Assembly: GCA_030433255.1 (NCBI GenBank)
Contig: JAUIMI010000001.1
Coordinates: 311,362 to 375,361, forward strand
Direction of reading: 5' to 3'
Source: a bacterium
Lineage (GTDB): Bacteria; Patescibacteriota; Minisyncoccia; Phycocordibacterales; UBA1006
DNA: 64,000 bases
The notes under the pieces are model-generated. The model was not told the origin of the DNA, did no database searches, and saw nothing but the letters and a program-made list of their open reading frames with translations. Positions 2,676-47,076 of the stretch are shown here, piece after piece. Numbering within the stretch: the stretch's first letter is position 1; each line of letters begins with the position of its first letter. Both the position numbers and the translations under genes were made by a program.

Positions 2676-3170
2676 TTACGAAGCCTGAAGTAGAACATCC
2701 CTCAATTTTAAGGCTTCCAATAATGAAGAGTCCAAGGTTAATGTTGGTTTGTTTTGGTTCAAATTGGATACTTCAGACTGTTGCCCTCCTTTTCTAGACA
2801 TATACTTTCCTGCCAATTCCTGATGACGGTTCGCACATAAATGTGTATAAGTAAATGAAGATTCAGGTTTTACATGTCTCAGAATCACCGAGACGTCTCT
2901 CATATTACCTCCCTGTTCTAAAATGCTATTCGCCTTGCCATGCCTAAAGCTGTGCGGTGTATAATTCTTGTCGATATTGGCATCTTCACACAGTAATTTC
3001 ATCCAACGTTGTACACTTCGCTGCGTGAATGGTTTCTTCGTTTTTGGATTAATCAAAAGTTCATCATGGTCAGTATCGAACCCTAGCCGTATCCCTAAAT
3101 AAATATTGAGCAAGAGAAGAGTAAATACAGCGATAGCTTCGAATTTGAAATAATTAAAGCCTATAACGAA
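2676..3170 (-). pseudogene. tyrosine recombinase / phage-type integrase, N-terminally disrupted
   Basis: The C-terminal catalytic region contains HSFRHG (the HxxR box) and a tyrosine in FTYTHL. A box I-like LNIYLGIRLG is present. The frame begins with TTG and an in-frame stop lies about 20 codons upstream. No core-binding domain can be recovered upstream. Confidence 0.6.
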
Positions 3171-3347
3171 TTATAGGCTAAACAATCAGTAGTGTTGGGA
3201 TATAGAATTCAACACCTTGTTTTTTGAATTAAGGTACTCGTACCCGTTTGGAGTTAGCTGATTAAGCTTTATTGTCTAACGTATTAAATATACTTGGTAA
3301 GCTTCTTCATTAGATCGTTTCATAACAGAACATTTAAAAAAGGAAAG

Positions 3348-3545
3348 TTATTTTACAAAAAGAAAATGAATAAAATAATTTGTCAAAAATTTCACTTCTT
3401 GTTTGGTCGGTCTTATAATACCAACATTGAATCCTATTTGGTTCAAGCGTGCTTGTAGAATTTTTACCTCAGTTGCCACATCTTTGGTATAGAAATGGTA
3501 ACGACCATCTCTGGCACCTGCTTTGACGTTTTGAGGCACTAACAT
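3348..3545 (-). pseudogene. orphan fragment of a peptidoglycan-binding (PG_binding_1-like) domain
   Basis: The segment TEVKILQARLNQIGF closely matches TEVKILQAHMNRLGF in the C-terminal PG-binding domain of the neighbouring 1020-aa protein. It is only 65 aa and has no signal peptide. Confidence 0.4.
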
Positions 3546-3679
3546 TGATCAGCGTAAGTATTACGTATTCGGACACTACCTTGAATTCTGCGAATACTAG
3601 TTTAAGTAATATAGGCTCTGTTTCAAAATGTTAACTTTCAATTTATATTAAAAAACACCATTTGGTGTTTTTTAAGTAA

Positions 3680-6600
3680 CTAATTCAATGATGTAACTCC
3701 ATCTAATGCCACTCCAGAAAGAGCATTTAAATGCCCTGCGGTTTCAGGTCCAATAATTCCATCAAGGATTAAGTTATTAGCTTGTTGGTATGAACGAATA
3801 CCTGCGTAGGTAAGCCCTCCGTAAATACCATCAAATGGTCCAATGGAATGGCCAAGTGAAGCAATACATTCTTGTGCTTGACGTATGTCATTTCCTGTCA
3901 TTCCTCGTTTGATTAATCGTCTGTAATTGATGAAACATTTGGCATCTTCTACAACAGGAGTTGATTCTACTTCTATTACTTCTTTCCCACAACTATTGTT
4001 AATCAATGATCTTGTAATTGGTCCAACATATCCGTCCTGAGTTGTACCTAGATATGCTTGCATACGTTTAATAGCTCCGTCAGTAATTGGTCCCAAGATC
4101 CCATCTACTTTCCCTGATGCAAACCCTAATCTATTCATATGTGCTTGAAGAATTTTAACTTCCGTTATGGTTTCATTTTCCCATGATGAGAAGCTTCCGT
4201 TGCGGTCTCCTACTTTCATGTTTTGATTTAGTATTTGAGATGATGGACATTGTTCCCCTTTTCCAAGCTCTTCAGAAACAGGAGTTCCAAAAATTTCTGC
4301 TAACTTTTCTTTTGATACACGCCTTGAACTTCCTTTTGAAGTTGAAGTCGTAGCATCATCATCCGTTAGCGTTACGATATGTGCTTGGTCAGCAACCGCA
4401 TCATACTCATCAGCACTTGCAGCAGCATTGATGCTAGCGGTGATACTTGCGGTGTCGGTTTGCACAAGGTCATCGTCAACACCTGTGACGGTAACCGTTT
4501 GAGGTGTATCCCAGTTTGCTGGTGTAAAGGTCAGTGAGCTTGGTGATACCGTTGCTTCGTTGGTGTCACTTGAACTCAGGTCGATGACAACATCTGAGGT
4601 TGGTTCAGCATCAAGCACAATGGTGTAGCTTGCTGTTCCTGCGTTTTCTGAAGCTGTTGATGTGTTTGATGATTGAGTGAAATCAGCCATATCATCATCA
4701 GTGATGATAATTGAAGCGGTTGCATCTGCTACCCCATCATAGGTATCATCAGAGGCAGCATCATTTACCGAAATCGTAAGTGTAGCTGAGTCATCACGGT
4801 CAAGATCATCGTTAACTGCTGTTACGGTGATGGTTTGGTTGACGTTCCAGTTACCTGTAGTAAAAGTCAGTGAACTTGGCGAGACGGTGGCTTCCCCAGT
4901 GTCACTTGAACTCAGGTCGATGACAACATCAGTAAGTGGCTGTGAACCCAACCGAACATTGAAACTCCCAGTTCCTGCATTTTCAAGAATGGTTAATCCA
5001 GTTGTGGTAATTCCACTTGGGTCGATGATAATAGAAGCGGCATCATCATCCGTTAGCGTTACGATATGTGCTTGGTCAGCAACCGCATCATACTCATCAG
5101 CACTTGCAGCAGCATTGATGCTAGCGGTGATACTTGCGGTGTCGGTTTGCACAAGGTCATCGTCAACACCTGTGACGGTAACCGTTTGAGGTGTATCCCA
5201 GTTTGCTGGTGTAAAGGTCAGTGAGCTTGGTGATACCGTTGCTTCGTTGGTGTCACTTGAACTCAGGTCGATGACAACATCTGAGGTTGGTTCAGCATCA
5301 AGCACAATGGTGTAGCTTGCTGTTCCTGCGTTTTCTGAAGCTGTTGATGTGTTTGATGATTGAGTGAAAGAAGTAACCACATTTACAATACGTGTTACTT
5401 CGATAGCATCATTTCCAGCCGCATCAGCTACATTATATGTGATAGTGTAACTACCAAGAGTGGATGTATCTACTGGATTTACAGTTACAATATTTACTGT
5501 GATATCTCCATCAAGATTATCTGTTGCAGCCGCTCCAGCATCTGAATATGGAGTATTTACAGGGACTGTTACAGGGTCACTCCCTGTAAGTGTTATAACA
5601 GGGGGTGTTGTATCTTGTAACCATAGTCTATTTTGAAAATCACCATTATCCCCATTGACTACGTAAACATCAATTTCCCCATCATTGTTTACGTCCCCAG
5701 TTGTAACCCCAAATGATTCCCCAGTATCTCCTGTAATGTTGTTTTGTGTAAAGTTTCCAGATCCATCATTTTCCCAAATAATATTCTGAAAACCAAAATA
5801 CATTGCAATAAGGATATCCAAATCACCATCACCATCAAAATCAACAATTTCTGAATCTTGAGCAGTACCTCCATAGTCATTAGCGATATTTTGAGAGGCA
5901 AATGTCCCATCATTATTATTTATCCAAAACCGATTTAGATTAACAGGTTGGTCATCATAGTATGAGGTTAGGTATAAATCAATATCATTATCACCATCTA
6001 TGTCACCGACAACTACTGAACGACCTGGGCAACCATTATTTTGATCCGTACATATATCACCAGTTATGTTACCACTTACAAAAGTTCCATCCCCATTTCC
6101 GAGCCATAATTTGTTCTGGTTATTATACGCTGCTCGTGAAGCGTAAATGTCTAGGTTTCCATCGTTATTAAAATCAGCCATTGCTACATCATCAGCAATA
6201 CCATCTCCTGAAATACTTCCATCAATGAAATTCCCAGTCCCATCATTTATCCAAAGAACATTGGTTCCGCCACTAAATGCTCCTACATAAATATCTAAAT
6301 CGCCATCATTATCAACATCGCCAATAACAACCGAACTAGACCGAGAAGTTGTTGAGTCAGCTGGAATATCGGCATTTGTAAATGTACCATCTCCATTTCC
6401 AAGCCATAGTTTATTTTTACTAAAACTATTGGTGACATAGATATCCAAATTCCCATCACCGTTAAGGTCTGCCATAGCTGCATCGGTAGTGTTTCCTTGG
6501 TCATCACCTAGAATATCAGAATTGGTAAAAGTTCCATCCCTATTTCCGATCCATAATTTATTTTGCTCTAATCGAGCACCTACATATATGTCTAAGTTTC

Positions 6601-6742
6601 CATCGTTGTTAACGTCACCCATTATGGCTGAACGTGAATTTCCTAAATCATTAGGAATATCTTGTGAAACGAATTCGGCATAAGCGCCTTGAGCACTAAA
6701 AGCAAGCGCAAGTAATAAAATAATCTTTGTATAATACTTCAT
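3680..6742 (-). CDS. large secreted FG-GAP/VCBS beta-propeller adhesin-like protein with Ig-like repeats and two C-terminal peptidoglycan-binding domains
   Basis: A signal peptide is present. There are seven or more D-x-N-x-D-G-x-L-D-I-Y-V calcium-binding FG-GAP repeats, a HYR/Ig-like segment, three beta-sandwich repeats of about 110 aa (two identical) and two PG_binding_1-like modules at the C-terminus. Confidence 0.8.
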   Translation of the reverse strand: MKYYTKIILLLALAFSAQGAYAEFVSQDIPNDLGNSRSAIMGDVNNDGNLDIYVGARLEQNKLWIGNRDGTFTNSDILGDDQGNTTDAAMADLNGDGNLDIYVTNSFSKNKLWLGNGDGTFTNADIPADSTTSRSSSVVIGDVDNDGDLDIYVGAFSGGTNVLWINDGTGNFIDGSISGDGIADDVAMADFNNDGNLDIYASRAAYNNQNKLWLGNGDGTFVSGNITGDICTDQNNGCPGRSVVVGDIDGDNDIDLYLTSYYDDQPVNLNRFWINNNDGTFASQNIANDYGGTAQDSEIVDFDGDGDLDILIAMYFGFQNIIWENDGSGNFTQNNITGDTGESFGVTTGDVNNDGEIDVYVVNGDNGDFQNRLWLQDTTPPVITLTGSDPVTVPVNTPYSDAGAAATDNLDGDITVNIVTVNPVDTSTLGSYTITYNVADAAGNDAIEVTRIVNVVTSFTQSSNTSTASENAGTASYTIVLDAEPTSDVVIDLSSSDTNEATVSPSSLTFTPANWDTPQTVTVTGVDDDLVQTDTASITASINAAASADEYDAVADQAHIVTLTDDDAASIIIDPSGITTTGLTILENAGTGSFNVRLGSQPLTDVVIDLSSSDTGEATVSPSSLTFTTGNWNVNQTITVTAVNDDLDRDDSATLTISVNDAASDDTYDGVADATASIIITDDDMADFTQSSNTSTASENAGTASYTIVLDAEPTSDVVIDLSSSDTNEATVSPSSLTFTPANWDTPQTVTVTGVDDDLVQTDTASITASINAAASADEYDAVADQAHIVTLTDDDATTSTSKGSSRRVSKEKLAEIFGTPVSEELGKGEQCPSSQILNQNMKVGDRNGSFSSWENETITEVKILQAHMNRLGFASGKVDGILGPITDGAIKRMQAYLGTTQDGYVGPITRSLINNSCGKEVIEVESTPVVEDAKCFINYRRLIKRGMTGNDIRQAQECIASLGHSIGPFDGIYGGLTYAGIRSYQQANNLILDGIIGPETAGHLNALSGVALDGVTSLN
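4354..4682. repeat. intragenic direct repeat, copy 1 (about 329 bp, identical to 5041..5369)
   Basis: Read by eye, the nucleotide sequence is identical to copy 2, offset by 687 bp (229 codons), inside the 3680..6742 CDS. Confidence 0.85.
5041..5369. repeat. intragenic direct repeat, copy 2 (about 329 bp, identical to 4354..4682)
   Basis: Same evidence as copy 1. The domain copy between the two (about 4700..5040) is diverged. Confidence 0.85.
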
Positions 6743-6857: not shown

Positions 6858-7352
6858 ATGAAACAATTATTTCTTCTAGTATTGGTATTTTTCTCTATTA
6901 CAGTGCAAGCTCAAGTTGGGCTAGGTACCAACACCCCAGACCCTAATTCTATATTGGATTTAACAAGTAACAATAAGGGATTGCTTATCCCTCGAATGCT
7001 AACTAGTGATCGTTTAGCTATTACATCACCACCAAACGGGTTAATCGTATTTGATGTTGATACCAATGGCATATGCTATTTTTCCTCTACTTTGGATTGG
7101 GTTTGCATTGATGCAGAGTCTACTAATGGATGGGTGCAATCTGTTGATGGCACAACACCAGCAAGTGATGCAACTCAATCCATTGAGCGTTCTGGTGACC
7201 TAGAAATTTCAACCACAAGTTTTCAGATTAGTATCTCTGAGTCAGGTGGGATTACACTCAAAAACACCTCAAGTAATTCAAGTATAGAAATACAAAGCGA
7301 CGGTAAGATAAAGATGACCGGAGCAAGTGGAAGTTTTGTATACATTAATTAG
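6858..7352 (+). CDS. secreted hypothetical protein
   Basis: A signal peptide (MKQLFLLVLVFFSITVQAQ) is present. A conserved N-terminal block VGLGTNTPDPNSILDL..GLLIPRM..DRLAI..P.NGLIVFDVDTN resembles a motif I recall from Bacteroidetes surface proteins, but the family identity is uncertain. Confidence 0.5.
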   Translation: MKQLFLLVLVFFSITVQAQVGLGTNTPDPNSILDLTSNNKGLLIPRMLTSDRLAITSPPNGLIVFDVDTNGICYFSSTLDWVCIDAESTNGWVQSVDGTTPASDATQSIERSGDLEISTTSFQISISESGGITLKNTSSNSSIEIQSDGKIKMTGASGSFVYIN

Positions 7353-7492: not shown

Positions 7493-8863
7493 TTAACGTA
7501 TAATTAATTTTTTAGATATTATCTTGTTGCTTGTAAGTATACTCACATGATACATTCCAGATGATAGATTAGGTAATTGTAAGCTTGTATTATCCGCCAA
7601 TAAACTACTATCATAATAAGCCATGGTTTTACCCAATGGATTATAGATAGTCACCTCTTGTATTGTAATAGCTTCGGGTAAGATAAAATGTATCTCTGTT
7701 GTTGCAGGATTTGGATATAAACGAATACTGTCAGTGGAGTCCTCAATATCTGAAACTCCCAAAGTAGCTTCATTTATGACATACATCTCAGTGATTAATT
7801 CATTTTCATATTGACCAACACCAATGTTGCCAGAAGTTAAGAGAACATTTGAAACTATCCCTTGATAAGGCATCTTTACAATAACGGATGAACCATATGC
7901 TCTATCAGCCGGAATAAAATTAGGATCTAGCGTCAAATTTGAGCCAGTATCGATGTAAATTCCTGCACTGGGATTCGGTTGTGATTGAAAACCAGCTACA
8001 TAATAGTCAAAACTTCCATCACTATTAAAATCATGTTCAAGAATATTAGCCTGTATATGATTAGGAATTACACTCGAACTTAACTCCGTAACACCATCTG
8101 AATCCACAAAATAAATATCAGATGTGTTGTTGTTAGTTTTAAGAATATACCTTCCAAATTCATTAAACACCAAAATGGTATCTGAACCCAATAAGCCTCT
8201 TGTACCTCTCAAGACATTATACGTGCCATTGTTGTTGCTAACCATAACATAACAATTATTATTCACATCATTGTTTGGTGTTGAGTTAAGAGAACTGGTA
8301 TCATCTACTATTTTTGTAAAGAATCCATTGGAATTTTCATAAATAATAGAACGTAAACGAAAACTTGCATCACGACCACTTGTTCGTAAATCAAGATCGC
8401 CATCATTATCAACATCGAAAAAATCAGCTATAACATCGTAAAGTCCAATGAGGTTTTGGGATACATTGTACCCTCCATTCCCGTCATCCATACGAATTTC
8501 TGCAAAAGGATTTGAATTGGGCAAATTAAGATTTGGCGTACCGATAATAAGAATATCTGGACCATACAGCCCATCAAGATCAGCCTGAAGTATTTTTCCA
8601 TACCCCACATCTGGCAATGTTCCCGTCTGAGCAAACATGTCATTTGTGTCATCAAAGTCGTAAATGCGAGTCCCAAGAATAGAATTATCCTCTATTCCAT
8701 ATCCGATTAATCGATTATGTAAACCATCTCCGTTAGTGTCGATAGGTAGAAATTCTCCTTTGACAGGAACGAGATTGTGCTGAATAGTTCCATAATTTAG
8801 TTGAGCACACACATTGAAAATAGGTGCAATTGCCATCATCAAAAACAAAATAATTTTTTTCAT
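7493..8863 (-). CDS. secreted FG-GAP-like repeat protein with a T9SS (Por) C-terminal sorting domain
   Basis: A signal peptide is present. Calcium-binding D-x-D-x-D-G repeats occur (FDVDNDGDLDL). The C-terminal 75 aa (LYPNPATTEIHF ... GMYHVSILTSNKIISKKLIIR) matches the type IX secretion CTD pattern. Confidence 0.7.
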   Translation of the reverse strand: MKKIILFLMMAIAPIFNVCAQLNYGTIQHNLVPVKGEFLPIDTNGDGLHNRLIGYGIEDNSILGTRIYDFDDTNDMFAQTGTLPDVGYGKILQADLDGLYGPDILIIGTPNLNLPNSNPFAEIRMDDGNGGYNVSQNLIGLYDVIADFFDVDNDGDLDLRTSGRDASFRLRSIIYENSNGFFTKIVDDTSSLNSTPNNDVNNNCYVMVSNNNGTYNVLRGTRGLLGSDTILVFNEFGRYILKTNNNTSDIYFVDSDGVTELSSSVIPNHIQANILEHDFNSDGSFDYYVAGFQSQPNPSAGIYIDTGSNLTLDPNFIPADRAYGSSVIVKMPYQGIVSNVLLTSGNIGVGQYENELITEMYVINEATLGVSDIEDSTDSIRLYPNPATTEIHFILPEAITIQEVTIYNPLGKTMAYYDSSLLADNTSLQLPNLSSGMYHVSILTSNKIISKKLIIR

Positions 8864-9037: not shown

Positions 9038-10978
9038 ATGAAAAAGCGAGTTGGCGTGTGGATACGAGTTTCCACAAAATTACAGCAGAATTCAGATAGC
9101 CCTGAACATCATTTGCAAAAAGCAAAAATGTACGCAGAGCTAAAAGATTGGGATATTGTAGAAGAGTACCACTTAGAAGCTGTTAGCGGCAAAAGCGTGA
9201 TGGAACACCATGAAGCCCAGCGTATGATGCGAGATATTCAAAGTGGTCATATTGAAGGTTTGATCTTCTCGAAGATTGCCCGCTTTGCTCGTAACGTAAA
9301 AGAACTTTTGGAATTCTCAAAACACTTTCAAAAGTATAAGGGAGATATGATTTCCTTGAGTGAATCTATAGATACCAGTACACCTTCTGGTCGCTTTTTC
9401 TTCACCATGATTTCTGCTATGGGTCAGTGGGAACGTGAAAATATTGTTGAACGTATTAAATCATCTGTAGAAGTCAGAGCCAAAATGGGAAAAATAATGG
9501 GTGGTATTCCATTTGGGTATAAACGAGTAGGTAAAGATGATATGGCACTTGATGAACACGAAGCTCCAATTCGTAAAATGATGTTTGACTTGTTTTTGGA
9601 GCATGAACGGCATGCAACCGTAGCCAACATTCTTAACGAAAAAGGATATCGCACCAAACGAAAAAGTAAATTCACCGGTACTACGGTTAAACGACTATTA
9701 CAAGACCCAACTGCAAAAGGTATTAGACGTTCTCATTGCACTAAGATAGATGAAAATGGAAAAACCGTAATGAGGGATAAGTCGGAATGGTACATCCACG
9801 AAGCACCACGAATCGTATCAGACGAAGTATGGGACACCGTAAATGATATTATCCGTAAACAGGAAAAAGAAAAGGTACAACCATTAAATAAAAAGGTGCA
9901 TTTGTTTACAAGCTATTTATTTTGTGAATGCGGTGGCGGTATGTATGTGCCATCGTCAAACCCAAAATACACTTGTAAGAAGTGTAAACGCAAAATCCAT
10001 GTCGAAGATATTGAAGCGATCTTTAAAGAACAGCTCACCGAGTTCATCATTTCAGAAGAAGAAGTAAAACGTTACTTTAATGGCACACACACCATCATCA
10101 GAGAAAAGCAACAAGAGATTGAAAATGTGAAATCAGAAATACTAAAACTTGAAGATAAGATTGAAAAGCTATTTGAACTTCACGAAAAAGGGCAAATTGA
10201 GACTGATAGATTTAAAGATTTCTACGATAAACCAAACAACCAAGTGCAACAATTAAAACTCAGAATCCCACGAATTGAAGGCGAAATCTATGCCTTGAAA
10301 GACCAATTTAAATCAAGTGGATATATTATTGAAGAAGCTCGTTCGTTATATGAAAACTGGCATAAACTCACCAAAAGGCAAAAACGTAACATCATAGAAA
10401 TCATTACCGAAAAGATAGTGGTATCAGAGCAGGAAGTGAACATCACACTTAACTATATTCTTCCAAAGACACCATCTTTGAAAACGACTGCAAATGGTAC
10501 TCATGGACTATACTCAATGAGTACCATTTGCAGTTTTAAACTGAAACCAAAGTTACGCAAAATACCTAAAGCAAAACCCTTTACCCACTCACTTGGAGAG
10601 TACATCCGACACGAAAGGCTAAAAAAGCACATTTCACAAGAAGCATTAGCAAAACAGTTTGGTGTTAATGGAGTTGCTTTATCTATGTGGGAACTAAAAC
10701 GTAAGCCAGTACATCCAAAACGTTTTCAATCGGTGATTGATTTTCTTGATTACGTTCCTAAAAAGTCATCGAAGTTTGATAAGCTAGGAACACGCACTCA
10801 ATTATGGCGATTACAAAATGAGGTGAGCCTCCAAGAGTTTTCAGAATTGGTACATGTTCCCATAGAAGAAATTACACGAATAGAAACAGCTAGATATTGT
10901 AAAATTGACAGTAAGGTATCTGAAATCATCAACGCATTCATCAAACACTCTATTTCTTCCCACGAAGTGCTTTCATAA
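9038..10978 (+). CDS. large serine recombinase (resolvase/invertase N-terminal domain, recombinase domain and zinc ribbon) with a C-terminal HTH extension
   Basis: The N-terminal VGVWIRVSTKLQ carries the serine nucleophile context. A Cys4 zinc ribbon (CECGGG ... CKKCKRK) and coiled-coil segments follow. One or two XRE-like HTH motifs sit at the C-terminus (ISQEALAKQFGVNGVALSMWE). Confidence 0.85.
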   Translation: MKKRVGVWIRVSTKLQQNSDSPEHHLQKAKMYAELKDWDIVEEYHLEAVSGKSVMEHHEAQRMMRDIQSGHIEGLIFSKIARFARNVKELLEFSKHFQKYKGDMISLSESIDTSTPSGRFFFTMISAMGQWERENIVERIKSSVEVRAKMGKIMGGIPFGYKRVGKDDMALDEHEAPIRKMMFDLFLEHERHATVANILNEKGYRTKRKSKFTGTTVKRLLQDPTAKGIRRSHCTKIDENGKTVMRDKSEWYIHEAPRIVSDEVWDTVNDIIRKQEKEKVQPLNKKVHLFTSYLFCECGGGMYVPSSNPKYTCKKCKRKIHVEDIEAIFKEQLTEFIISEEEVKRYFNGTHTIIREKQQEIENVKSEILKLEDKIEKLFELHEKGQIETDRFKDFYDKPNNQVQQLKLRIPRIEGEIYALKDQFKSSGYIIEEARSLYENWHKLTKRQKRNIIEIITEKIVVSEQEVNITLNYILPKTPSLKTTANGTHGLYSMSTICSFKLKPKLRKIPKAKPFTHSLGEYIRHERLKKHISQEALAKQFGVNGVALSMWELKRKPVHPKRFQSVIDFLDYVPKKSSKFDKLGTRTQLWRLQNEVSLQEFSELVHVPIEEITRIETARYCKIDSKVSEIINAFIKHSISSHEVLS

Positions 10979-13900
10979 TAATATTAGTTATCGAAGCCTG
11001 CTTATTGGTGTCATTGTCTGTTTTGTAATCCACGTTTACACGGTAGCCACGTACACGCTTTACTTTGGTTTTTGGTTGAATTAAGGCATCAAGATACAGC
11101 AGTAATTCTTCAGATTTGAAGAAGTGGATTTTTAAGTGTTGTTTTTTAGAAATATTCTTTAAGGCTTGTTCCTTGATATTCTTAAGATGCTTTTCGTCCT
11201 CTGAAATCATATATACCAAAGAGTAGTTATCATCCAAGCACTTTTGAATATTTTGTACTTCATAATCTACTCTATTAGTTACTGAAATTTCAATGGCAAT
11301 ACGAATATCATCTTTTAACAGCGATACATCAACTTTGCCACCATTTAATGTTGAATCTTCAAGTGTTGCCTTAAACCCTCGCTGGAGAGCCATAGAACGA
11401 ATGTAATTTTGAATTGAACGATGCTGACGGACAATCTCCTGTTCTTCGGCTTGTTGTAAGTATTTTTCTTTACGAGCTTCTAAATCATCAGTCTTTTCTA
11501 AATTTTCAGTTTTTGGAGATGGTTTTGTTTCAGTAATGGGCTTTTCAACTTCACTTTTCTTATCTTCAACAATTACGGGTTCAACAGATTTTTCAATTTT
11601 GGGTTCTGTTGTTTTAGTTTTGAGTTTAGTCTTTTGGGGTGTTTGCTTAGGAAGCAAGGAAGCTAACAACTCATCAAGTTCTGCTTTAGATTTGCTGTAG
11701 CTTTTTCTTGTATGAGCAACAATACTATCTCTATTTACTTCGGCATTAGTTTCAGCTATAGACAATGGAAAGGTTGAAATATTAAAATCATCACTTGAAG
11801 AACCTACGCGCATAATGGCTTGTCCGATACCGAGACTCTGTAAATCATCTTGCTCAAAATATGAAAAACCAGACTCCAATCGTTTCGCATCGCTATCGCC
11901 TAGACGAAAACAAATCCGTGTTTTTGGATTTGATAAAACAGAGTTCAACAATTTTGCATCTTCAATTTGAGCCAATTCTTGATGAGCAATGGTAATACCT
12001 AAACCATATTTTCTAGCACCACTTAATATACGTTCAATACTTGGTGTGATGAAATTTTGGAACTCATCTAGGTATAACATAAAAGGTTTACGGCTATCCT
12101 TACCTTTAGATTGCCTTGCCAATGCCGATTGATTAAATTTTGCCAAGAACAATGAGCCTAATAAATAGGAATTCTGTTCTCCAATAAGGCCTTGCGATAA
12201 TTTCAGTAAAACAATTTTGTTGGTATTAAGGCAATTTGCTACATCAACACCTTTGTTTTGAGCTAACATATAGCGCACCAATTTTGGACGTAAAAATGTA
12301 TCTATACGAGTAAGTAGTGGTGCAATACCTTTTCGTACCAAAGGATATTCATTATTCCAATAGTAATGTAACGAAGGGTCGTTGACCGTTTTTAAGTATT
12401 GAACTCTATAAGGTTCTTCAAGTAGAAAACGCTTTAATTCAATAAGCGTTCCACCTTGAGTGCTCTCTAACATGGTATTTACAGCGTTTTGCAATACCGC
12501 AGTCATATTATCTCCCCAAGCAGTGGCATGACGTTTAAATGCCGAAACTAAATCTGATGAGAGTACAATTTTTTCAGCATCGGTATGCGCTTCTAATAGA
12601 TTGAATCCAATAGGGAAGTCAGCATCGGAAGGGTCTATTAAAACTACATCATTAATCCTGTTTTCTGGAATACGCTCTAAAATATCATCAATGATGTCGC
12701 CATGTGGATCGAACATAGCACAACCCATTCCATTTTCAATATCGGCAAGCATCATATTTGCCAGTAGAGTACTTTTACCAACGCCTGTGGCTCCTATTAC
12801 GTGTGTATGGGACAAACGTGTTTCATAGCTTAATTGAACAGGAATATCTTCTTGATTATGGGTATTGACTCCAATTAGGATGCCTTGATTGTCCTTTTGG
12901 TGTATACGTTTGGTTTTACCAACTTGCCATTGTAGTTTTTTAGAAACCACCGTTTTATTGGGATAGTGCAAAAAGGTATTCAGTTCCTTGGAATTCAATA
13001 CAAAGCCCAATCGGTTACTGAGGCGATGATGTAGATTGTATTTATGGAAATCATAATCATACCCTTCATTGGATAAAGGGATGAGTTTGTTATGCTGAGA
13101 GGTTGAAACTGCCGAAATACTTCGTGCTAACTCTTGTGCCAGATACTGACTCCTGTAATTGTCCTTGCCTTGAGTAGCTATACGCATCACCACTGAAAAT
13201 AGTGGATGTGCTATTTTTTCTTTGGCACACTGTGGCATTTCAGGAGCATCCGAAAAAAAAGAACCGCCAGCACCATCATTTACCGAATACATTGTATCCT
13301 TTGCTAAAGGAGAACTAATACCTTTAAACAGAATTTGAAAAACAGCAACATCATCATCCTGCAAAGCTTCCATAGTTGCGATGACTGAAGTTAATGGGTC
13401 TATGTTAAAAGAATCAGACGTAACTATGCTTCGCATATATTCACTATTAAGCCCAAAGTCTGCAATAGCGATATCATTTTTGTTTGAAAATCCAAAATCA
13501 TCAACTTCAATAGTTTTAATTATAACCATTGGAAAGTATGCCGATAATTGCGATTTCAATCTGCCTCTATCCTGTTTACTACATACCATTTGAATTTGGA
13601 TAGTATCTGAATTACCAATAATTTCAAAGGACAGTAAATGTTCTGTAAAGGATAGTAGATTGAGAAGTTCGATATTCCTGCTTGGATTGATTTCAGTCCC
13701 ATACGGAAAGGAAATTGAGAGACCAACAAGTTGAGGCTTTTCTGAAACTTCAAGAAAACGAGGTTTAACCTCTATTAAATCTTCTTCTGGTTCTTCTTCT
13801 TTAGGAGGAGCAAGTAATTTGGTTACTTGTTTGAATAATGAAGGTGCTCTACCATCATCTTGTATTGAAGGTCGGTTTTGGCTTACATGCTGAAAGGGAA

Positions 13901-14009
13901 CATAGGGAACCTCAATATCAATAGGAGTATCGAAATTGTAATACCCACGAAATCGATACTCCCAATTATAGAAATTAAGGGTTGCTTGTTCACTTCTTGT
14001 TAAACCCAT
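10950..14009 (-). CDS. FtsK/HerA/TrwB-superfamily P-loop ATPase (DUF87 or type IV coupling-protein-like) with an unknown 400-aa N-terminal domain, a K/E/P-rich linker and a C-terminal possible nuclease-like domain
   Basis: Walker A GATGVGKST is present, then FDPHGD, Walker B LYLDEFQNF and an AHQ motif. No TM helices are evident. The C-terminal roughly 120 aa show a D...E-I-S pattern weakly reminiscent of PD-(D/E)xK folds. Confidence 0.65.
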   Translation of the reverse strand: MGLTRSEQATLNFYNWEYRFRGYYNFDTPIDIEVPYVPFQHVSQNRPSIQDDGRAPSLFKQVTKLLAPPKEEEPEEDLIEVKPRFLEVSEKPQLVGLSISFPYGTEINPSRNIELLNLLSFTEHLLSFEIIGNSDTIQIQMVCSKQDRGRLKSQLSAYFPMVIIKTIEVDDFGFSNKNDIAIADFGLNSEYMRSIVTSDSFNIDPLTSVIATMEALQDDDVAVFQILFKGISSPLAKDTMYSVNDGAGGSFFSDAPEMPQCAKEKIAHPLFSVVMRIATQGKDNYRSQYLAQELARSISAVSTSQHNKLIPLSNEGYDYDFHKYNLHHRLSNRLGFVLNSKELNTFLHYPNKTVVSKKLQWQVGKTKRIHQKDNQGILIGVNTHNQEDIPVQLSYETRLSHTHVIGATGVGKSTLLANMMLADIENGMGCAMFDPHGDIIDDILERIPENRINDVVLIDPSDADFPIGFNLLEAHTDAEKIVLSSDLVSAFKRHATAWGDNMTAVLQNAVNTMLESTQGGTLIELKRFLLEEPYRVQYLKTVNDPSLHYYWNNEYPLVRKGIAPLLTRIDTFLRPKLVRYMLAQNKGVDVANCLNTNKIVLLKLSQGLIGEQNSYLLGSLFLAKFNQSALARQSKGKDSRKPFMLYLDEFQNFITPSIERILSGARKYGLGITIAHQELAQIEDAKLLNSVLSNPKTRICFRLGDSDAKRLESGFSYFEQDDLQSLGIGQAIMRVGSSSDDFNISTFPLSIAETNAEVNRDSIVAHTRKSYSKSKAELDELLASLLPKQTPQKTKLKTKTTEPKIEKSVEPVIVEDKKSEVEKPITETKPSPKTENLEKTDDLEARKEKYLQQAEEQEIVRQHRSIQNYIRSMALQRGFKATLEDSTLNGGKVDVSLLKDDIRIAIEISVTNRVDYEVQNIQKCLDDNYSLVYMISEDEKHLKNIKEQALKNISKKQHLKIHFFKSEELLLYLDALIQPKTKVKRVRGYRVNVDYKTDNDTNKQASITNIIMKALRGKK

Positions 14010-17876: not shown

Positions 17877-17962
17877 AATAAAAAGTTTTATATAGTTTAC
17901 TTGCCTACTCTTTTAGCTTTTCGGCTCCCGCTATTATTATTTTCTAAATAAACGAAAAATAT

Positions 17963-19435: not shown

Positions 19436-19879
19436 CTATTTTTTCTCTATTACTAAAAATAGCTGGCTCTTTGTGTTGTATGCTTCGAGGGTTAAGGTAT
19501 ACTTGCCTGCCTCTTTGAATGCGTACTTCTCTTTATATAAGGTGTTGGGTGTATTTAAGTGTAACTGCTCGTGTACAGCTCTTATAATTTCTTTTAAACC
19601 TAGCGCATGATATAGAGAACCTTTTTCATTTAATTTCTCTCTTATGGTTATGGTTTTACCATTAATCAGGGATAGTGTTGTTTCTATTTTTTCCTGTTCC
19701 TTTTCTGCCTTATTAAGAGCAGCTGTTTTTGCTTGTTTGATTTTATTTAATGCTGTATTGGTAGCAACCTTTGCCAAACCTTTCGGGATAAGAGAGTTTT
19801 GAGCGTATCCATCTGAAACTTCAACAACCTCTCCTTTTTTACCAATACCTTTTATATGCTGTGTTAAAATAATTTTCAT
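19436..19879 (-). CDS. rplI: 50S ribosomal protein L9
   Basis: MKIILTQHIKGIGKKGEVVEVSDGYAQNSLIPKGLA is the canonical L9 N-domain. The length of 147 aa fits. Confidence 0.85.
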   Translation of the reverse strand: MKIILTQHIKGIGKKGEVVEVSDGYAQNSLIPKGLAKVATNTALNKIKQAKTAALNKAEKEQEKIETTLSLINGKTITIREKLNEKGSLYHALGLKEIIRAVHEQLHLNTPNTLYKEKYAFKEAGKYTLTLEAYNTKSQLFLVIEKK

Positions 19880-23689: not shown

Positions 23690-23771
23690 GCCCAGATGGT
23701 GGAATTGGTATACACACATGGTTGAGGGCCATGGCTCATTGAGCATGCGGGTTCGAGCCCCGCTTTGGGCA
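23690..23771 (+). tRNA. tRNA-Leu (anticodon GAG)
   Basis: The cloverleaf was folded by hand. The acceptor stem is GCCCAGA/TTTGGGC. The anticodon arm is CATGG-TTGAGGG-CCATG. A long variable arm (GCTCA-TT-TGAGC) is present. The T-arm is GCGGG-TTCGAGC-CCCGC and the discriminator is A. No CCA is encoded. Confidence 0.85.
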
Positions 23772-23778
23772 CAAAACA

Positions 23779-28263: not shown

Positions 28264-28356
28264 AATGTTTTTATTTTTTGTATTTATTTAATTAAAACAT
28301 AATTTTATTAAATAACAAAATTAAATAAAATAACTTCCATATTGGAAGTTATTTTA

Positions 28357-29034
28357 TTAAACTTTGTAATCATAGTTAGTTATTTTTCCATCTTCAAGAT
28401 AAATAATTCTATCACAGTATTTTGTATACTCTGGTTCGTGTGTCACCATTACAATAGTCTGACCTTTTTTATGTAATTCATGAAGTAATTCTATGACTTG
28501 TTTTGATGATGTTGAATCCAAGTTAGCAGTTGGTTCATCAGCAAATAAAATTTCTGGTTGTTGTACAATTGCACGAGCCACTGAAACTCGTTGTTGTTGG
28601 CCACCAGAAAGTTGGTTTGGCCTATTAGAATATTTCCCTTTCATGTCGATTGAATCAATTATGGTACGAGCTTTTTCTTTAGCTTTCTCATATGGTACAC
28701 CTTGCATAATTAATGGAATTGCAACATTTTCTTCTGCTGTTAATTCCGGAACAAGCGCGTAATCTTGAAAAATATATCCTAACTTACGTAAACGAAAATC
28801 TGTCCGTTCTGTTTCTGATAATTTTAAAATATCAATTTCATTAACGGCTATTGCACCAGTTGTTGGTTTATCTAATAAACTTATCTGATACAGTAACGTT
28901 GATTTCCCGGCTCCAGATTTACCCATAATAGCGATAAATTCTCCTGTATTAATTTCTAAATCAATACCCTTGAGTACTGGTGTTACTATTTCACCATTTA
29001 TATATGTTTTTGTGAGATTTTTTACAGTAATCAT
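28357..29034 (-). CDS. ABC transporter ATP-binding protein (MacB/LolD-like)
   Basis: Walker [10 protein letters not shown], the signature LSGGQQQRV and Walker B ILFADEPT are present. Confidence 0.85.
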
Positions 29035-33595: not shown

Positions 33596-35008
<1,413 letters not shown>

Positions 35009-35930: not shown

Positions 35931-37427
35931 TTAAGCATTAAATGTATCGTTAAATTCCTTGATTGCTTGCTGTAATTCTGATTGAACGTCATCCGTCCAA
36001 CCTGAAGCAATTCCATCAAGTAGTGATGATTTTGATGCGTCTAAAAATGAATAAAATCCTTCTTCCCACTTTTGAACTTCTTCTTTTTTAACAGAATCCA
36101 ATAACCCATTATTAAGTGCATAAATTGATGCTACTTGCTTTGACATAATGATTGGACTGTATTGTTTTTGCTTCAGTAGTTCTACAGATTTTGCTCCATG
36201 ATCAAGAGTTTTCTTGGTTTGTGGATCAAGATCAGAACCAAATTGAGCAAATGACTCTAATTCTCGATATTGAGCAAGTCCTAGCTTCATTGGACCAGCT
36301 GTTTTTTTCATTGCTTTAGCTTGGGCAGAACCTCCAACACGAGATACTGATAATCCTACATTAATCGCAGGTCGAATACCTTTGTTAAATAGTCCAGCTT
36401 CCAAGAAAATTTGACCGTCAGTAATAGAAATCACATTGGTTGGAATATAAGCTGAAACATCTCCTCCTTGTGTCTCAATAACTGGTAATGCAGTAATTGA
36501 ACCACCTCCATTTTCGTTATTTAAACGACATGCTCGTTCTAGTAAACGTGAGTGAAGATAGAAAACATCTCCCGGGTATGCTTCACGCCCTGGTGGACGT
36601 CGTAATAATAGTGAAATTTCACGATATGCTGCAGCGTGTTTGGTTAAATCATCATAAATAACCAATACATCTTCTCCTTTGTCTAAAAAGTATTCTGCAA
36701 TAGCAACTCCTGCGTATGGTGCAATATACTGTAACGATGACGGATCAGAAGCTCCAGCTAACACTACCGTGGTGTAGTCCATTGCTCCAGCCTCTTCAAG
36801 CTTTTGAACAACACGCATTACTTTTGATTTCTTTTGACCAATAGCAACATATACACATTTCATATTTTGCCCTTTTTGATTGATAATTGTATCAATTGCA
36901 AGTGCAGTTTTACCAGTTTGACGATCTCCAATGATTAATTCACGTTGACCTCTCCCAACTGGAACCAATGCGTCAATTACCTTGATACCTGTTTGCATAG
37001 GAACTGAAACTGGTTCACGTGTCATAACTCCTGGCGCAACACGTTCAATCAATTGCTCCGTATCAGTAGCAATGTCACCTTTTCCATCGATAGCTTTTGC
37101 TAGTGGGTTAACCACACGACCAATAATTGCATCTCCTACTGGAATTGAAAGGATTTTTCCTGTTCGTTTTGCTGTATCACCTTCTTTCACTGAAAGATAA
37201 TCACCAAGAACAATAATACCAACCGTATCTTCTTCCAGGTTCAGAGCAACACCTATTGTTCCATTCTGAAACTCAATCATTTCCGAAGCCTTACATTGTG
37301 AAAGCCCTGATACACGCGCAATACCATCTCCGATAGCTTGTACGATACCGTATTCCGTAACATCAACATCAGGTTGAAAATTTGAGATTTCTTTTTCTAG
37401 TTTTTTTACAAGTGTTTCTGTATTCAT
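35931..37427 (-). CDS. atpA: ATP synthase F1 alpha subunit
   Basis: Walker A is GDRQTGKTA. Conserved alpha-subunit blocks are present. The length is 498 aa. Confidence 0.95.
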
Positions 37428-40302: not shown

Positions 40303-40376
40303 TGCGCATGCTAGGACTTGAACCTAGGACCTCGTCATTATCAGTGACGCGCTCTAACCACCTGAGCTACACGCGC
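40303..40376 (-). tRNA. tRNA-Ile (anticodon GAU)
   Basis: The reverse complement folds as acceptor GCGCGTG/CATGCGC and D-arm GCTC-AGGTGGTTA-GAGC. The anticodon arm is CGTCA-CTGATAA-TGACG and the T-arm CTAGG-TTCAAGT-CCTAG. No CCA is encoded. Confidence 0.85.
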
Positions 40377-45156: not shown

Positions 45157-47076
45157 TTATCTTATTTCTGCACCAATTTTTTCTAATTCAGAAATAACAT
45201 TATTCATATCATTATCAACCTCATCATCCGTAAGTGTTTTTTCGTTTGATTGAAATACAAGTGAAAATGCAAATGAAGTCTTTCCTTCCTTTTCAAAGGT
45301 GTCAAATAAGAATACTTTTTGCAAGAAATTTGTCTTTGTACTTAATATAAGAGATTGTAACCCTTCTTCTGAATATCCTTCGGGAGACCAAAATGAAACA
45401 TCACGCGTAATAAAAGGATAGATTGATATACTGTGGAACACATCTGATTCGGTGTAACTTTTATTATTAAATAGTTCATCATATTCATCAGGAGTAGTTA
45501 ATTTCTCTGCAACCTCTGAAAGATTAATATTTAAGGTATTTCCATGAAATTCAGTAATTACATCAAAAGCAAATAGTTCTTTAATTTCCTTCAGTAATAT
45601 CTCTAACTGAACATGTTCTAATCCGTATTTTTTATTGGCTGATTTTCCATTATTTTGAATACCAATACTACATATAGCTTGCTCTTCCTCCTTTGTATAC
45701 ACTCGTCCAATTTCAAAAATTTTAATTTGGTTGGTACCAAAATAATCGACATTACGTATATTTTTTTCTAGAGACTCGTTTATCTGTTTATGTAGTGTTT
45801 TACGTAACGATTTTTTATCGCTTGCTATTGGATTAAACATTTCGATATCACCTTTTTTAACAAAAGAATAGGTCATAACATCAGAAAAACCTTTCTGAAT
45901 TAAAAAATTACGTAATTGCTGTTCAACAAAAATATTTTTATTAATTTTTGGGGTAAATATATAATTATCTAGTGATTTCGCTTTAATATTATGATATCCA
46001 TAAATACGACCAATTTCTTCGATAATATCTTCAGTAATAGTTATATCCAAACGATTATACGGAACATGTACTGTATATACTCCATCATGGTAATGATTTT
46101 GATAATTTAAACGCTCTAAAATAGCATCAACATCTGATTGATTAATTGAAACACCAAGTAGTGATTGAATTTGAGTTAGACTAACCATTACAGTCGTTTG
46201 TGGCTCTTGCTTAGGATAGATATCATTTAGTTCACCTAATACTAACTCATCAGTATGCGCACAATCAGAAACAAGACGAGACACTGATTCCATAGCAATA
46301 GGAGCTAATTCTGAACTTATCCCATTCTCAAAACGCTTTGATGCATCAGTTAATATTTTCACACGTCGTGCTGTTGTTCTGGTCGTTGTTGGATTAAAGT
46401 TAGCCACCTCAAGAACAATGTTTTTTGTATTTTCGTCCACTTCTGCTTTTGTTCCACCTTTTACCCCAGCAAGTGCCAAAATACCTTCATCATCAGCAAC
46501 AACCAAATCAGTCTCTAACAACTCAATAGTTTCCCCCGACAAGGTATCCATAGTTTCTCCTGCGTGAGCATTTCGAATAGTAATGTCTCCAGTAACTTTA
46601 TCAGCATCAAAAGCATGCATTGGGTTTCCAGTATCGAACATTACATAATTAGTTGCATCAACAATATTATTAATAGAACGTTGACCTATTGATGCTATGC
46701 GTTCCTGTAACCACCTTGGTGAATCATGGACTGATATATTATTGATAGTCCGTGCAATATATCTATAACACTGTTCAGTGTTTGTAATGGTTACCGAAAT
46801 ACTATCATGAGCGTGCGAAACAGAATTATGATAATGATAACGCTCTTTTTTTAGTTCATACCCGGTAAGAGCCTTGTACTCATGTGCTATCCCGGAATAC
46901 GACAAACAATCATGTGCACGATTTGGAAGTACATCAATGTCAATAACTGCATCATTATCAGTATATTCAATTCCCTCTATCTCAAAAGAATGCAGCATTA
47001 AGGTATCTGCAATAGATTGTGCGTCAGGTAATTCAGTTTCAAAATAGCTTTGCAGCCAGTTTCGTGAAATAAGCAT
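45157..47076 (-). CDS. pheT: phenylalanine--tRNA ligase beta subunit (short form lacking the N-terminal tRNA-binding domain)
   Basis: The B3/B4 and B5 domains are present. The C-terminal FDX-ACB domain reads FLFDTFEKEGKTSFAFSLVFQS. The length is 639 aa against a typical figure of about 800. It is tightly coupled to pheS. Confidence 0.9.
   Translation of the reverse strand: MLISRNWLQSYFETELPDAQSIADTLMLHSFEIEGIEYTDNDAVIDIDVLPNRAHDCLSYSGIAHEYKALTGYELKKERYHYHNSVSHAHDSISVTITNTEQCYRYIARTINNISVHDSPRWLQERIASIGQRSINNIVDATNYVMFDTGNPMHAFDADKVTGDITIRNAHAGETMDTLSGETIELLETDLVVADDEGILALAGVKGGTKAEVDENTKNIVLEVANFNPTTTRTTARRVKILTDASKRFENGISSELAPIAMESVSRLVSDCAHTDELVLGELNDIYPKQEPQTTVMVSLTQIQSLLGVSINQSDVDAILERLNYQNHYHDGVYTVHVPYNRLDITITEDIIEEIGRIYGYHNIKAKSLDNYIFTPKINKNIFVEQQLRNFLIQKGFSDVMTYSFVKKGDIEMFNPIASDKKSLRKTLHKQINESLEKNIRNVDYFGTNQIKIFEIGRVYTKEEEQAICSIGIQNNGKSANKKYGLEHVQLEILLKEIKELFAFDVITEFHGNTLNINLSEVAEKLTTPDEYDELFNNKSYTESDVFHSISIYPFITRDVSFWSPEGYSEEGLQSLILSTKTNFLQKVFLFDTFEKEGKTSFAFSLVFQSNEKTLTDDEVDNDMNNVISELEKIGAEIR

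What the first reader, a model, noticed from the sequence alone, without database searches (positions are those of the whole stretch)
4354..5369. Two 100%-identical repeats of about 329 bp (687-bp period) inside the 1020-aa FG-GAP adhesin gene
Nucleotides 4354..4682 and 5041..5369 are identical by eye over every line I compared. They encode the same 110-aa beta-sandwich unit (... VIDLSSSDTNEATVSPSSLTFTPANWDTPQTVTVTGVDDD ...), with a diverged third copy between them. Perfect identity at this length implies very recent duplication or ongoing gene conversion. It is also a substrate for RecA-mediated expansion and contraction, that is, length variation of a surface protein. Short-read assembly could have collapsed or mis-counted such repeats.
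Basis: seen in the sequence. Interest (0 to 1): 0.5.

Follow-up and report, generated by a model that had tools for sequence, protein, structure and literature searches.

The report
Perfect domain repeat in stalk gene
A 330-base stretch encoding one complete protein domain occurs twice without a single difference inside a gene for a cell-wall-tethered stalked protein; this is a well-known kind of recombination-prone repeat, and the number of copies in the assembly may be too low.

Summary
Window 4353-4682 and 5040-5369 are identical over 330 nt (offset 687 nt) and form the only long repeat in the 64 kb. Each copy (A) encodes one complete 110-aa Ig-like/Calx-beta-like beta-sandwich domain. A 56%-identical paralogue (B) lies between them. 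A-B-A is therefore 1.48 periods of a two-domain, 229-codon repeat.

The repeat forms the stalk of a 1020-aa protein: signal peptide, seven-blade FG-GAP propeller, Ig-like domain, A-B-A, then two peptidoglycan-binding domains.

The closest relative of the cassette has the same gap-free 687-nt period. It was assembled twice independently as a closed 687-nt cycle, which is the mark of a collapsed perfect array. This points to recurrent homogenising recombination rather than a single accident. It also means A-B-A is only the minimum copy number.

Short-read assemblies of this same strain stop before the repeat. No second strain was available, so length variation is untested. The labels "adhesin" and "surface" are not shown, because there is no T9SS sorting domain.

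Extras:
- The cassette has foreign-looking codon usage.
- It stands where orthologues carry Ig-like domains.
- A relic of an older 3' end lies just downstream.

The finding is ordinary in kind: a new member of the high-identity-repeat stalk proteins.

The parts
3680..6742 (-). Gene for the 1020-aa protein: signal peptide, FG-GAP propeller, Ig-like domain, A-B-A stalk cassette, linker, two PG_binding_1 domains
   Evidence: ORF list, translation, Pfam hits. The identical protein P0001 is in the NCBI-derived collection on a 388-kb contig.
6674..6742 (-). N-terminal Sec-type signal peptide (MKYYTKIILLLALAFSAQGAYA; no lipobox Cys)
   Evidence: Read from the translation. This is an inference by eye; no signal-peptide predictor was available.
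5618..6655 (-). FG-GAP/VCBS beta-propeller region (about aa 30-375)
   Evidence: PF13517 FG-GAP_3, E 1.2e-45, 7 stretches; PF01839 FG-GAP, E 1.2e-18. About 60% identical to orthologues P0003, P0004 and P0005.
5378..5596 (-). Bacterial surface Ig-like domain (aa 383-455)
   Evidence: PF16403, E 7.6e-18, profile positions 1-71 of 71.
5040..5369 (-). Repeat copy A1 (first in gene order; aa F459-A568), one complete beta-sandwich domain
   Evidence: Exact 330-nt identity with 4353-4682. Domain borders taken from the AlphaFold model.
4683..5039 (-). Unit B (aa 569-687), a diverged paralogous beta-sandwich domain with a 6-aa N-terminal insertion
   Evidence: 56% aa and 62% nt identity to A. It is the second domain of the model.
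4353..4682 (-). Repeat copy A2 (aa F688-A797), identical to A1
4563..4594 (-). 32-nt run (encoding DVVIDLSSSDT) that is identical in A2, B (4899-4930) and A1 (5250-5281); a candidate short gene-conversion tract between A and B
   Evidence: The run length was reached in 7 of 20,000 codon-column shuffles. The synonymous codons are shared within this genome and differ in the related cycle L006.
4193..4351 (-). Low-complexity linker (aa 798-850); conserved motif SKxKLxEIFG shared with orthologues
   Evidence: Alignment A1.
4007..4162 (-). PG_binding_1 domain 1 (aa 861-912)
   Evidence: PF01471, E 2.9e-26, 2 stretches.
3728..3907 (-). PG_binding_1 domain 2 (about aa 946-1005), absent from the orthologues
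   Evidence: Second PF01471 stretch; NCBIfam stretches 942-1005 and 946-1005; alignment A1.
3414..3575 (-). Relic (pseudogene fragment with in-frame stops) of an older, orthologue-like peptidoglycan-binding 3' end, just downstream of the present stop codon
   Evidence: tblastn: 45 aa, 75.6% identical to P0003 and P0007 (E 3e-19) but only 40% to this gene's own domain.
2676..3113 (-). Truncated tyrosine recombinase (C-terminal catalytic half only) flanking the gene's 3' side
   Evidence: PF00589 Phage_integrase, profile positions 85-169 of 172, E 3.7e-11.

Best explanation
The perfect repeat is two copies (A1, A2) of one whole Ig-like/Calx-beta-like beta-sandwich domain, separated by a diverged paralogous domain (B). 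Together they make 1.48 periods of a two-domain higher-order repeat (A-B, 687 nt = 229 codons). This repeat is the stalk between an N-terminal FG-GAP beta-propeller and two C-terminal peptidoglycan-binding domains of a Sec-exported protein.

Shown:
- the identity of the two copies;
- the domain register of the repeat;
- the in-frame period;
- the same period in a distant relative.

Inferred:
- The identity is kept up by recurrent in-register homologous recombination between periods (unequal exchange and gene conversion, that is, concerted evolution), not by one isolated duplication.
- The same recombination would add or remove whole A-B blocks in frame, giving proteins of 791, 1020 or 1249 aa and so on. 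This would change stalk length by two domains at a time while leaving every domain intact.
- Because A-B-A is the shortest path through a 687-nt cycle in an assembly graph, the true number of periods in the organism may be larger than assembled.
- The cassette as a whole looks like a swapped-in module. Orthologues carry 1-4 extra Ig-like domains in its place, its codon usage is atypical for this genome, and a relic of an older 3' end survives downstream.
For: - Exact 330-nt identity at offset 687, the only long repeat in the window.
- Simulated deletion and expansion products stay in frame, at 791 and 1249 aa.
- The closest cassette relative (P0187; contigs L006 and L007 from two assemblies) aligns gap-free with the same 229-codon period. 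Each contig's ends overlap by exactly the assembler's k (141 and 77), leaving an identical 687-nt cycle in both.
- A types (65.5% aa) and B types (77% aa) are closer across lineages than A is to B within the window (56%), and third-position identity is only 0.40. The A/B period is therefore old, while within-genome identity is perfect.
- A and B share a 32-nt exact run with genome-specific synonymous codons (7 of 20,000 shuffles).
- Short-read assemblies of this same strain end at 5420/5421 and 2742, and none retrieved spans the cassette.
- Orthologue alignment shows Ig-like domains in place of the cassette.
- Codon usage of A+B has z = 5.8, against 0.01 for the rest of the gene and a maximum of 5.11 in 117 control windows.
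- Relic of the older 3' end.
- Precedent: high DNA identity between long repeats goes with intragenic recombination and length variation in 'Periscope Proteins' (PMC8201768).
Against: - No second strain or long-read assembly with the cassette could be found, so neither copy-number variation nor the true copy number was observed.
- Two independent recent duplications with the same domain register in the two lineages would also give the shared 687-nt period.
- Only 1.48 periods are present in the assembly, and the identical copies are not adjacent.
- Other arrays of this domain family show 73-92% nt identity between neighbours rather than 100%.
- The short-read contigs break 51 nt before the repeat rather than at its border, so something besides the repeat interrupts assembly there.
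- The atypical codon usage has no settled cause. It could reflect old horizontal acquisition or GC-biased conversion.
Confidence: 0.65

Rival explanations
1. A single, very recent duplication placed a second copy of domain A after B, or duplicated A-B and then lost a B. There has been no ongoing homogenisation, and the identity simply reflects lack of time to diverge.
For: There are 0 differences in 330 nt. Only two copies of A are present. The identity tract ends exactly at unit borders, where the flanks are unrelated, as expected for the end points of a copied segment.
Against: A-B-A contains no exact tandem square, so one simple tandem duplication cannot produce it; at least two steps are needed (reasoning). 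The nearest relative independently shows the same 687-nt period in perfectly repeated form despite saturated synonymous divergence. The 32-nt A/B run suggests conversion also acts between A and B.
Confidence: 0.15
2. The arrangement or the perfect identity is an assembly product. Either a longer or slightly heterogeneous (A-B)n array was collapsed to its minimal path with a consensus sequence, or two haplotypes were joined near 5420-5450, so the gene as written does not exist in any one cell.
For: A-B-A is exactly the minimal traversal of a 687-nt cycle in an assembly graph. The related array was collapsed into a closed cycle by MEGAHIT (k141) and by a second assembler with a 77-nt overlap. 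Logan assemblies of the same strain from two runs end at 5420/5421, 2742 and 9060 with 0 mismatches to the window, which indicates graph branches flanking the cassette-bearing segment. The exact protein is on one contig only.
Against: The reading frame and the Ig-like domain run smoothly through 5420-5450 (full-length PF16403 match). Both junction types (A to B and B to A) also exist in the independent relative, so the arrangement is biologically real in this family. A collapsed array would still contain perfect or near-perfect repeats, so the core observation would stand.
Confidence: 0.15

Closest known systems
Periscope Proteins (SasG/Aap, Rib/alpha C, Sgo_0707 SHIRT; Whelan et al. 2021, PMC8201768)
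   Same: The layout is the same: an N-terminal functional head, a stalk of folded domains encoded by long repeats with very high DNA identity, and a C-terminal cell-wall attachment. High DNA identity is thought to drive intragenic recombination and in-frame length change. SasG and Aap also use a two-module (G5-E) period; that point rests on my own knowledge.
   Different: Only 1.48 periods are assembled here. Adjacent domains are 56% identical, not 80% or more, and the identical copies are next-but-one neighbours. The anchor is non-covalent PG_binding_1, not LPXTG. The organism is a probable Bacteroidota (diderm), and surface exposure is not shown. No strain-to-strain length variation was observed.
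Giant repetitive proteins built from the same ~110-aa Calx-beta-like/Ig-like unit (marine metagenome 'calcium-binding proteins')
   Same: The A and B units belong to this very large family. It has 20,031 cluster representatives at E<=1e-3, mostly proteins of 1,100-7,900 aa with 6-43 matching stretches, and about 50% identity to the best fragments. The fold is closest to Calx-beta CBD domains and S-layer Ig domains.
   Different: Here only three units are present, as a short stalk inside a mid-sized protein with a propeller head and peptidoglycan anchors. The unit does not reach any Pfam model: Calx-beta PF03160 matches only 4 of 48 homologues and not this protein.
FG-GAP / Ig-like / PG_binding_1 orthologues in Flavobacteriaceae (e.g. 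Mesoflavibacter WP_106680543.1 = P0005; P0003, P0004, P0007, P0008)
   Same: They share the signal peptide, the seven-blade FG-GAP region (about 60% identity), the first Ig-like domain, the linker motif and PG_binding_1. The divergent 164-aa neighbour gene is conserved in L003 (48% identity). A serine recombinase lies nearby in both L005 and the window.
   Different: The orthologues have 1-4 further Bact_surface_Ig-like domains where this protein has A-B-A, only one PG_binding_1 domain, and no high-identity repeats.
Concerted evolution of tandem gene or domain arrays by unequal crossing-over and gene conversion (general principle; own knowledge)
   Same: Perfect identity within a genome combined with strong divergence between lineages for the same repeat period.
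   Different: It is inferred here from one genome and one collapsed relative. No population data are available.

Membership tests
Periscope Proteins (PMC8201768) | [quoted passage not shown] | tested here: inconclusive
   A1 and A2 are 110 aa and 100% identical but are separated by B, and adjacent A/B units are 56% identical. Read as a 229-aa period, only 1.48 copies are assembled.
Periscope Proteins (PMC8201768) | Repeats are folded domains forming an elongated stalk | tested here: met
   The AlphaFold model of A+B has pLDDT 93 and shows two beta-sandwich domains in tandem. Rod-like rigidity itself was not tested.
Periscope Proteins (PMC8201768) | N-terminal functional domain and C-terminal cell-wall attachment | tested here: met
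   FG-GAP propeller at the N-terminus and two PG_binding_1 domains at the C-terminus. The attachment would be non-covalent, not LPXTG.
Periscope Proteins (PMC8201768) | Repeat number varies between closely related strains | not testable with these tools
   No other protein or locus with this head plus cassette was found in the protein collection, GTDB genomes or JGI metagenomes. The same strain in two Logan assemblies is broken before the repeat.
Periscope Proteins (PMC8201768) | Exposure on the bacterial cell surface | not testable with these tools
   A signal peptide is present, but there is no Por_Secre_tail or lipobox. A periplasmic or released location is equally possible in a diderm.
Calx-beta domain (Pfam PF03160) | Match to the family profile at its curated threshold | tested here: not met
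   Neither unit gave a PF03160 hit, even at E<=10. Only 4 of 48 homologues match it.
Calx-beta domain (Pfam PF03160) | Calx-beta type beta-sandwich fold | tested here: met
Calx-beta domain (Pfam PF03160) | Ca2+ binding by acidic loops | not tested
   Asp-rich unit ends (TDDD, VDDD) are visible in the sequence. No coordination analysis was done.
FG-GAP/VCBS beta-propeller proteins | Multiple FG-GAP repeats above the Pfam threshold | tested here: met
   PF13517: 154.3 bits against a cut-off of 26.9, 7 stretches. PF01839: 67 bits against 22.1.
T9SS cargo proteins of Bacteroidota | C-terminal Por_Secre_tail sorting domain | tested here: not met
   No PF18962 hit in this protein. The gene at 7493-8863 has one.

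The most novel reading that the evidence does not exclude
The 687-nt A-B block may be an ancient, self-homogenising two-domain stalk module. It is conserved gap-free between this probable Bacteroidota genome and a bacterium that appears to read TGA as glycine (code-25 type). In this genome it may belong to a roughly 2.7-kb 3' gene segment (about 2713-5449: stalk, anchors, relic, integrase remnant) that exists in two contexts or haplotypes. That would make it a swappable stalk-and-anchor module for a peptidoglycan-tethered propeller protein carried next to mobile-element genes. Its raised GC3 would then be a footprint of GC-biased conversion within the array.
Probability: 0.12. Interest if true: 0.5.

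Novelty: new member of a known kind. Interest (0 to 1): 0.27.

Why it matters
Practically, the gene is probably mis-measured in short-read assemblies. Its annotated length of 1020 aa should be treated as a minimum, and comparative counts of this domain in metagenome-derived genomes will be biased low.

Biologically, it adds a marine, probably Bacteroidota example with a peptidoglycan-binding anchor to the class of stalk proteins whose length can change in whole-domain steps. It also shows, within one locus, three layers of modular evolution:
- perfect repeats inside the stalk;
- replacement of an Ig-like stalk by a different domain type;
- a leftover of the displaced 3' end.

None of this is surprising to a specialist.

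Tried and rejected
- Tandem Repeats Finder does not see the repeat, because the 687-nt period exceeds its 500 limit.
- No Pfam or NCBIfam family was found for the unit. The weak fn3_6, DUF1299 and choice_anch_T hits are below cut-off. A sequence search of the PDB found only chance hits.
- Exact look-ups of the full protein, in two forms, were not on record.
- Scans of genome contigs and metagenome contigs found no close strain. They returned only distant cassette carriers (L001, L002, L004) and one orthologue (L003).
- I tried to fetch the short-read contigs that carry the cassette, using the 65-aa relic ORF, a guessed 233-aa 3' fragment and the serine recombinase. All were not on record.
- I looked for site-specific recombination signatures at the three contig break points. 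No shared direct or inverted repeat of 9 nt or more was found, and no recurring k-mer lies near 5420. A shufflon-like inversion is therefore not supported.
- The antisense ORF 4827-5189 (+) (120 aa, GTG start) lies inside the repeat region and was treated as a by-product of the coding repeat.
- A simple one-step tandem duplication was rejected, because A-B-A contains no tandem square.
- Recent transfer of the cassette from the L006 lineage was rejected, because identity is 62-68% nt and third positions are near saturation.

Full report
**1. Observation**

Window 4354-4682 and 5041-5369 differ at 0 of 329 positions. The maximal exact repeat is 4353-4682 = 5040-5369, which is 330 nt at an offset of 687 nt. 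The repeat finder reports the same family, with a third in-register copy at 4689-4988 that is 64% identical. Across the whole 64-kb window this is the only direct repeat of 40 nt or more. Chance cannot produce it.

Both copies lie in ORF 3680-6742 on the minus strand, 1020 aa. In gene order the copies encode F459-A568 (A1) and F688-A797 (A2). The unit between them (B, aa 569-687) is 56% identical in protein and 62% in codon-aligned DNA. The identity tract begins and ends exactly where the flanks stop being homologous: VTS|FTQ against MAD|FTQ, and DDDA|ASII against DDDA|TTST.

**2. What the gene is**

Pfam gives seven FG-GAP_3 stretches (E 1e-45), one Bact_surface_Ig-like domain (aa 383-455) and two PG_binding_1 domains. 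The N-terminus reads as a Sec signal peptide without a lipobox Cys; this is by eye. There is no T9SS sorting domain, although the gene at 7493-8863 has one. That neighbouring domain, the low G+C (33.7%) and orthologues named Mesoflavibacter and Winogradskyella point to a Bacteroidota host.

Housekeeping proteins are singletons or in very small clusters at 90% identity.

The unit family is very large. It has 20,031 cluster representatives at E<=1e-3, most of them giant proteins with 6-43 matching stretches. "Adhesin" and "surface protein" are not demonstrated.

**3. The repeat is a two-domain period, and it is old**

The closest relative of the cassette is P0187, 73% identical. It lies on two short contigs from different assemblies, L006 and L007. 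Each contig's ends overlap by exactly 141 nt and 77 nt respectively, leaving the same 687-nt cycle with 0 mismatches between the two. That cycle aligns gap-free with the window's A-B-A and has the same 229-codon period.

Across the two lineages, A is 65.5% identical to A and B is 77% identical to B. Both values exceed the 56% between A and B within the window, and third-position identity is only 0.40. The A/B period therefore predates the split, yet each lineage has perfect identity between periods. That is the signature of concerted evolution. Two independent in-register duplications remain possible.

A further hint comes from a 32-nt exact run shared by A and B in the window. It encodes DVVIDLSSSDT at 4563-4594, 4899-4930 and 5250-5281. 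The synonymous codons are the same within this genome and different in L006. Only 7 of 20,000 codon-column shuffles reach that run length.

**4. Mechanism**

Shown:
- The 687-nt offset is a multiple of three.
- Recombination between A1 and A2 would give in-frame products of 791 aa (loss of A-B) or 1249 aa (gain).
- Every domain would remain intact in those products.

Inferred from established knowledge of homologous recombination between direct repeats, and from the Periscope Protein literature (PMC8201768):
- A 330-nt perfect homology is an efficient substrate for such recombination.
- Stalk length is therefore expected to change in two-domain steps.

I could not observe variation, because no second strain with this head-plus-cassette exists in the collections searched.

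**5. Assembly caveat**

A-B-A is exactly the shortest path through a 687-nt cycle entered at the start of A and left at the end of A. Any (A-B)n-A array gives the same k-mer graph. The relative's array was in fact collapsed to a bare cycle by two assemblers.

Two Logan (k=31) assemblies contain this very strain. L008 and L009 equal window 5420/5421-9060, and L010 ends at 2742, all with 0 mismatches. Nothing retrieved spans 2743-5419.

The break at 5420 lies 51 nt before the repeat, not at its border. No local repeat explains it. This remains unexplained. It could mean that the segment of about 2713-5449 occurs in a second context or haplotype.

**6. The cassette is a swapped-in module**

- Orthologues (P0003, P0004, P0005, P0007, P0008; about 60% identity in the propeller) carry 1-4 additional Ig-like domains where this protein has A-B-A. 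They also have only one PG_binding_1 domain.
- GC3 is 0.35-0.37 in the three units, against 0.15-0.24 in the rest of the gene and 0.22 +/- 0.04 in the window's genes.
- Corrected for amino-acid composition, the excess of G/C-ending codons in A+B has z = 5.8. The rest of the gene has z = 0.01, and the maximum in 117 control windows is 5.11.
- The G+C peak at 4200-5400 is the highest in the first 20 kb.
- A relic lies 105-266 nt downstream of the stop codon, at 3414-3548 and extending to 3575 with in-frame stops. It is 75.6% identical to the peptidoglycan-binding region of P0003 and P0007 but only 40% identical to this gene's own domain. This is physical evidence that an older 3' part was displaced.
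- The surroundings carry mobile-element genes: a truncated tyrosine recombinase (2676-3113), a large serine recombinase (9038-10978) and a TraG/TrwB-like protein (10950-14009). The Mesoflavibacter orthologue also sits beside a serine recombinase.

The cause of the atypical codon usage is open. It could be old horizontal acquisition or GC-biased conversion in a recombining array.

**7. Comparison and verdict**

The closest known kind is the Periscope Protein class: head, high-identity repeat stalk, wall anchor. This protein meets the architecture and folded-domain criteria. It is inconclusive on the tandem rule of 80% or more identity, because the identical copies are next-but-one neighbours. 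Strain variation and surface exposure could not be tested.

It has the Calx-beta fold but fails the Pfam Calx-beta profile.

The finding is real and correctly read in the main, but it is ordinary in kind: a new member of a known class. Its practical message is that the repeat count is a lower bound. Interest is 0.27.

Noticed in passing
L006:1-828 and L007:1-764 (ENA ERZ27246229 k141_417999; ERZ508505 NODE_146423): The nearest relative of the cassette is a closed 687-nt assembly cycle. Its open frame contains three in-frame TGA codons per period and no TAA or TAG. The TGAs fall where homologues have Gly (211 of 258), Gly (138 of 226) and Ala (105 of 148). This suggests an organism that reads TGA as glycine (genetic code 25 type, as in Gracilibacteria and Absconditabacteria).
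   Followed up: partly
window 3414-3575 (-): A pseudogene relic of an orthologue-like PG_binding region (45 aa, 75.6% identical to P0003 and P0007) lies just downstream of the gene's stop codon. It is truncated after 'GII' and carries in-frame stops upstream.
   Followed up: yes
window 2742, 5420/5421 and 9060: Contigs from two independent k=31 assemblies of the same strain (SRR24442553, ERR3428547; 0 mismatches to the window) end at these positions. The segment between 2743 and 5419 (cassette, gene 3' end, relic, integrase remnant) was not retrievable. The break at 5420 is not at the repeat border and has no local explanation.
   Followed up: partly
window 2676-3113 (-), 9038-10978 (+), 10950-14009 (-); L005:9817-11370: Mobile-element genes surround the locus: a truncated tyrosine recombinase, a 646-aa serine recombinase with an HTH domain, and a TraG/TrwB-like coupling protein. 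The Mesoflavibacter orthologue also lies next to a serine recombinase, so the gene may be cargo of an integrative element.
   Followed up: partly
window 4353-5369 (-): The three-unit cassette has GC3 of 0.35-0.37 against about 0.22 for the genome's genes. The adjacent linker and PG-binding parts are typical (0.21-0.22), so the anomaly is confined to the repeat units.
   Followed up: yes
window 6858-7352 (+); L003:3384-3878: A divergently transcribed 164-aa secreted protein (recorded Pfam hit PF26696 PTL_trimer) is conserved next to the orthologous gene in L003 (48% identity). It may be a functional partner.
   Followed up: partly
window 17902-17934 (-): Rfam DUF805b cis-regulatory RNA motif, 45.4 bits against a gathering score of 35.6.
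   Followed up: no
window 23690-23772 (+): ARAGORN calls a tRNA-Leu(GAG) here, but the Rfam gathering-threshold scan listed only the tRNA-Ile at 40303-40376.
   Followed up: no
window 28295-28387: A 45-nt A+T-rich inverted repeat (76% complementary, 3-nt loop) lies in an intergenic region between two minus-strand genes. It may be a terminator.
   Followed up: no
window 19439-19879, 33599-35002, 35934-37427, 45160-47076: Housekeeping-type proteins of the window are singletons or in very small clusters at 90% identity and carry no source name. The organism has no closely related named genome in the collection.
   Followed up: partly
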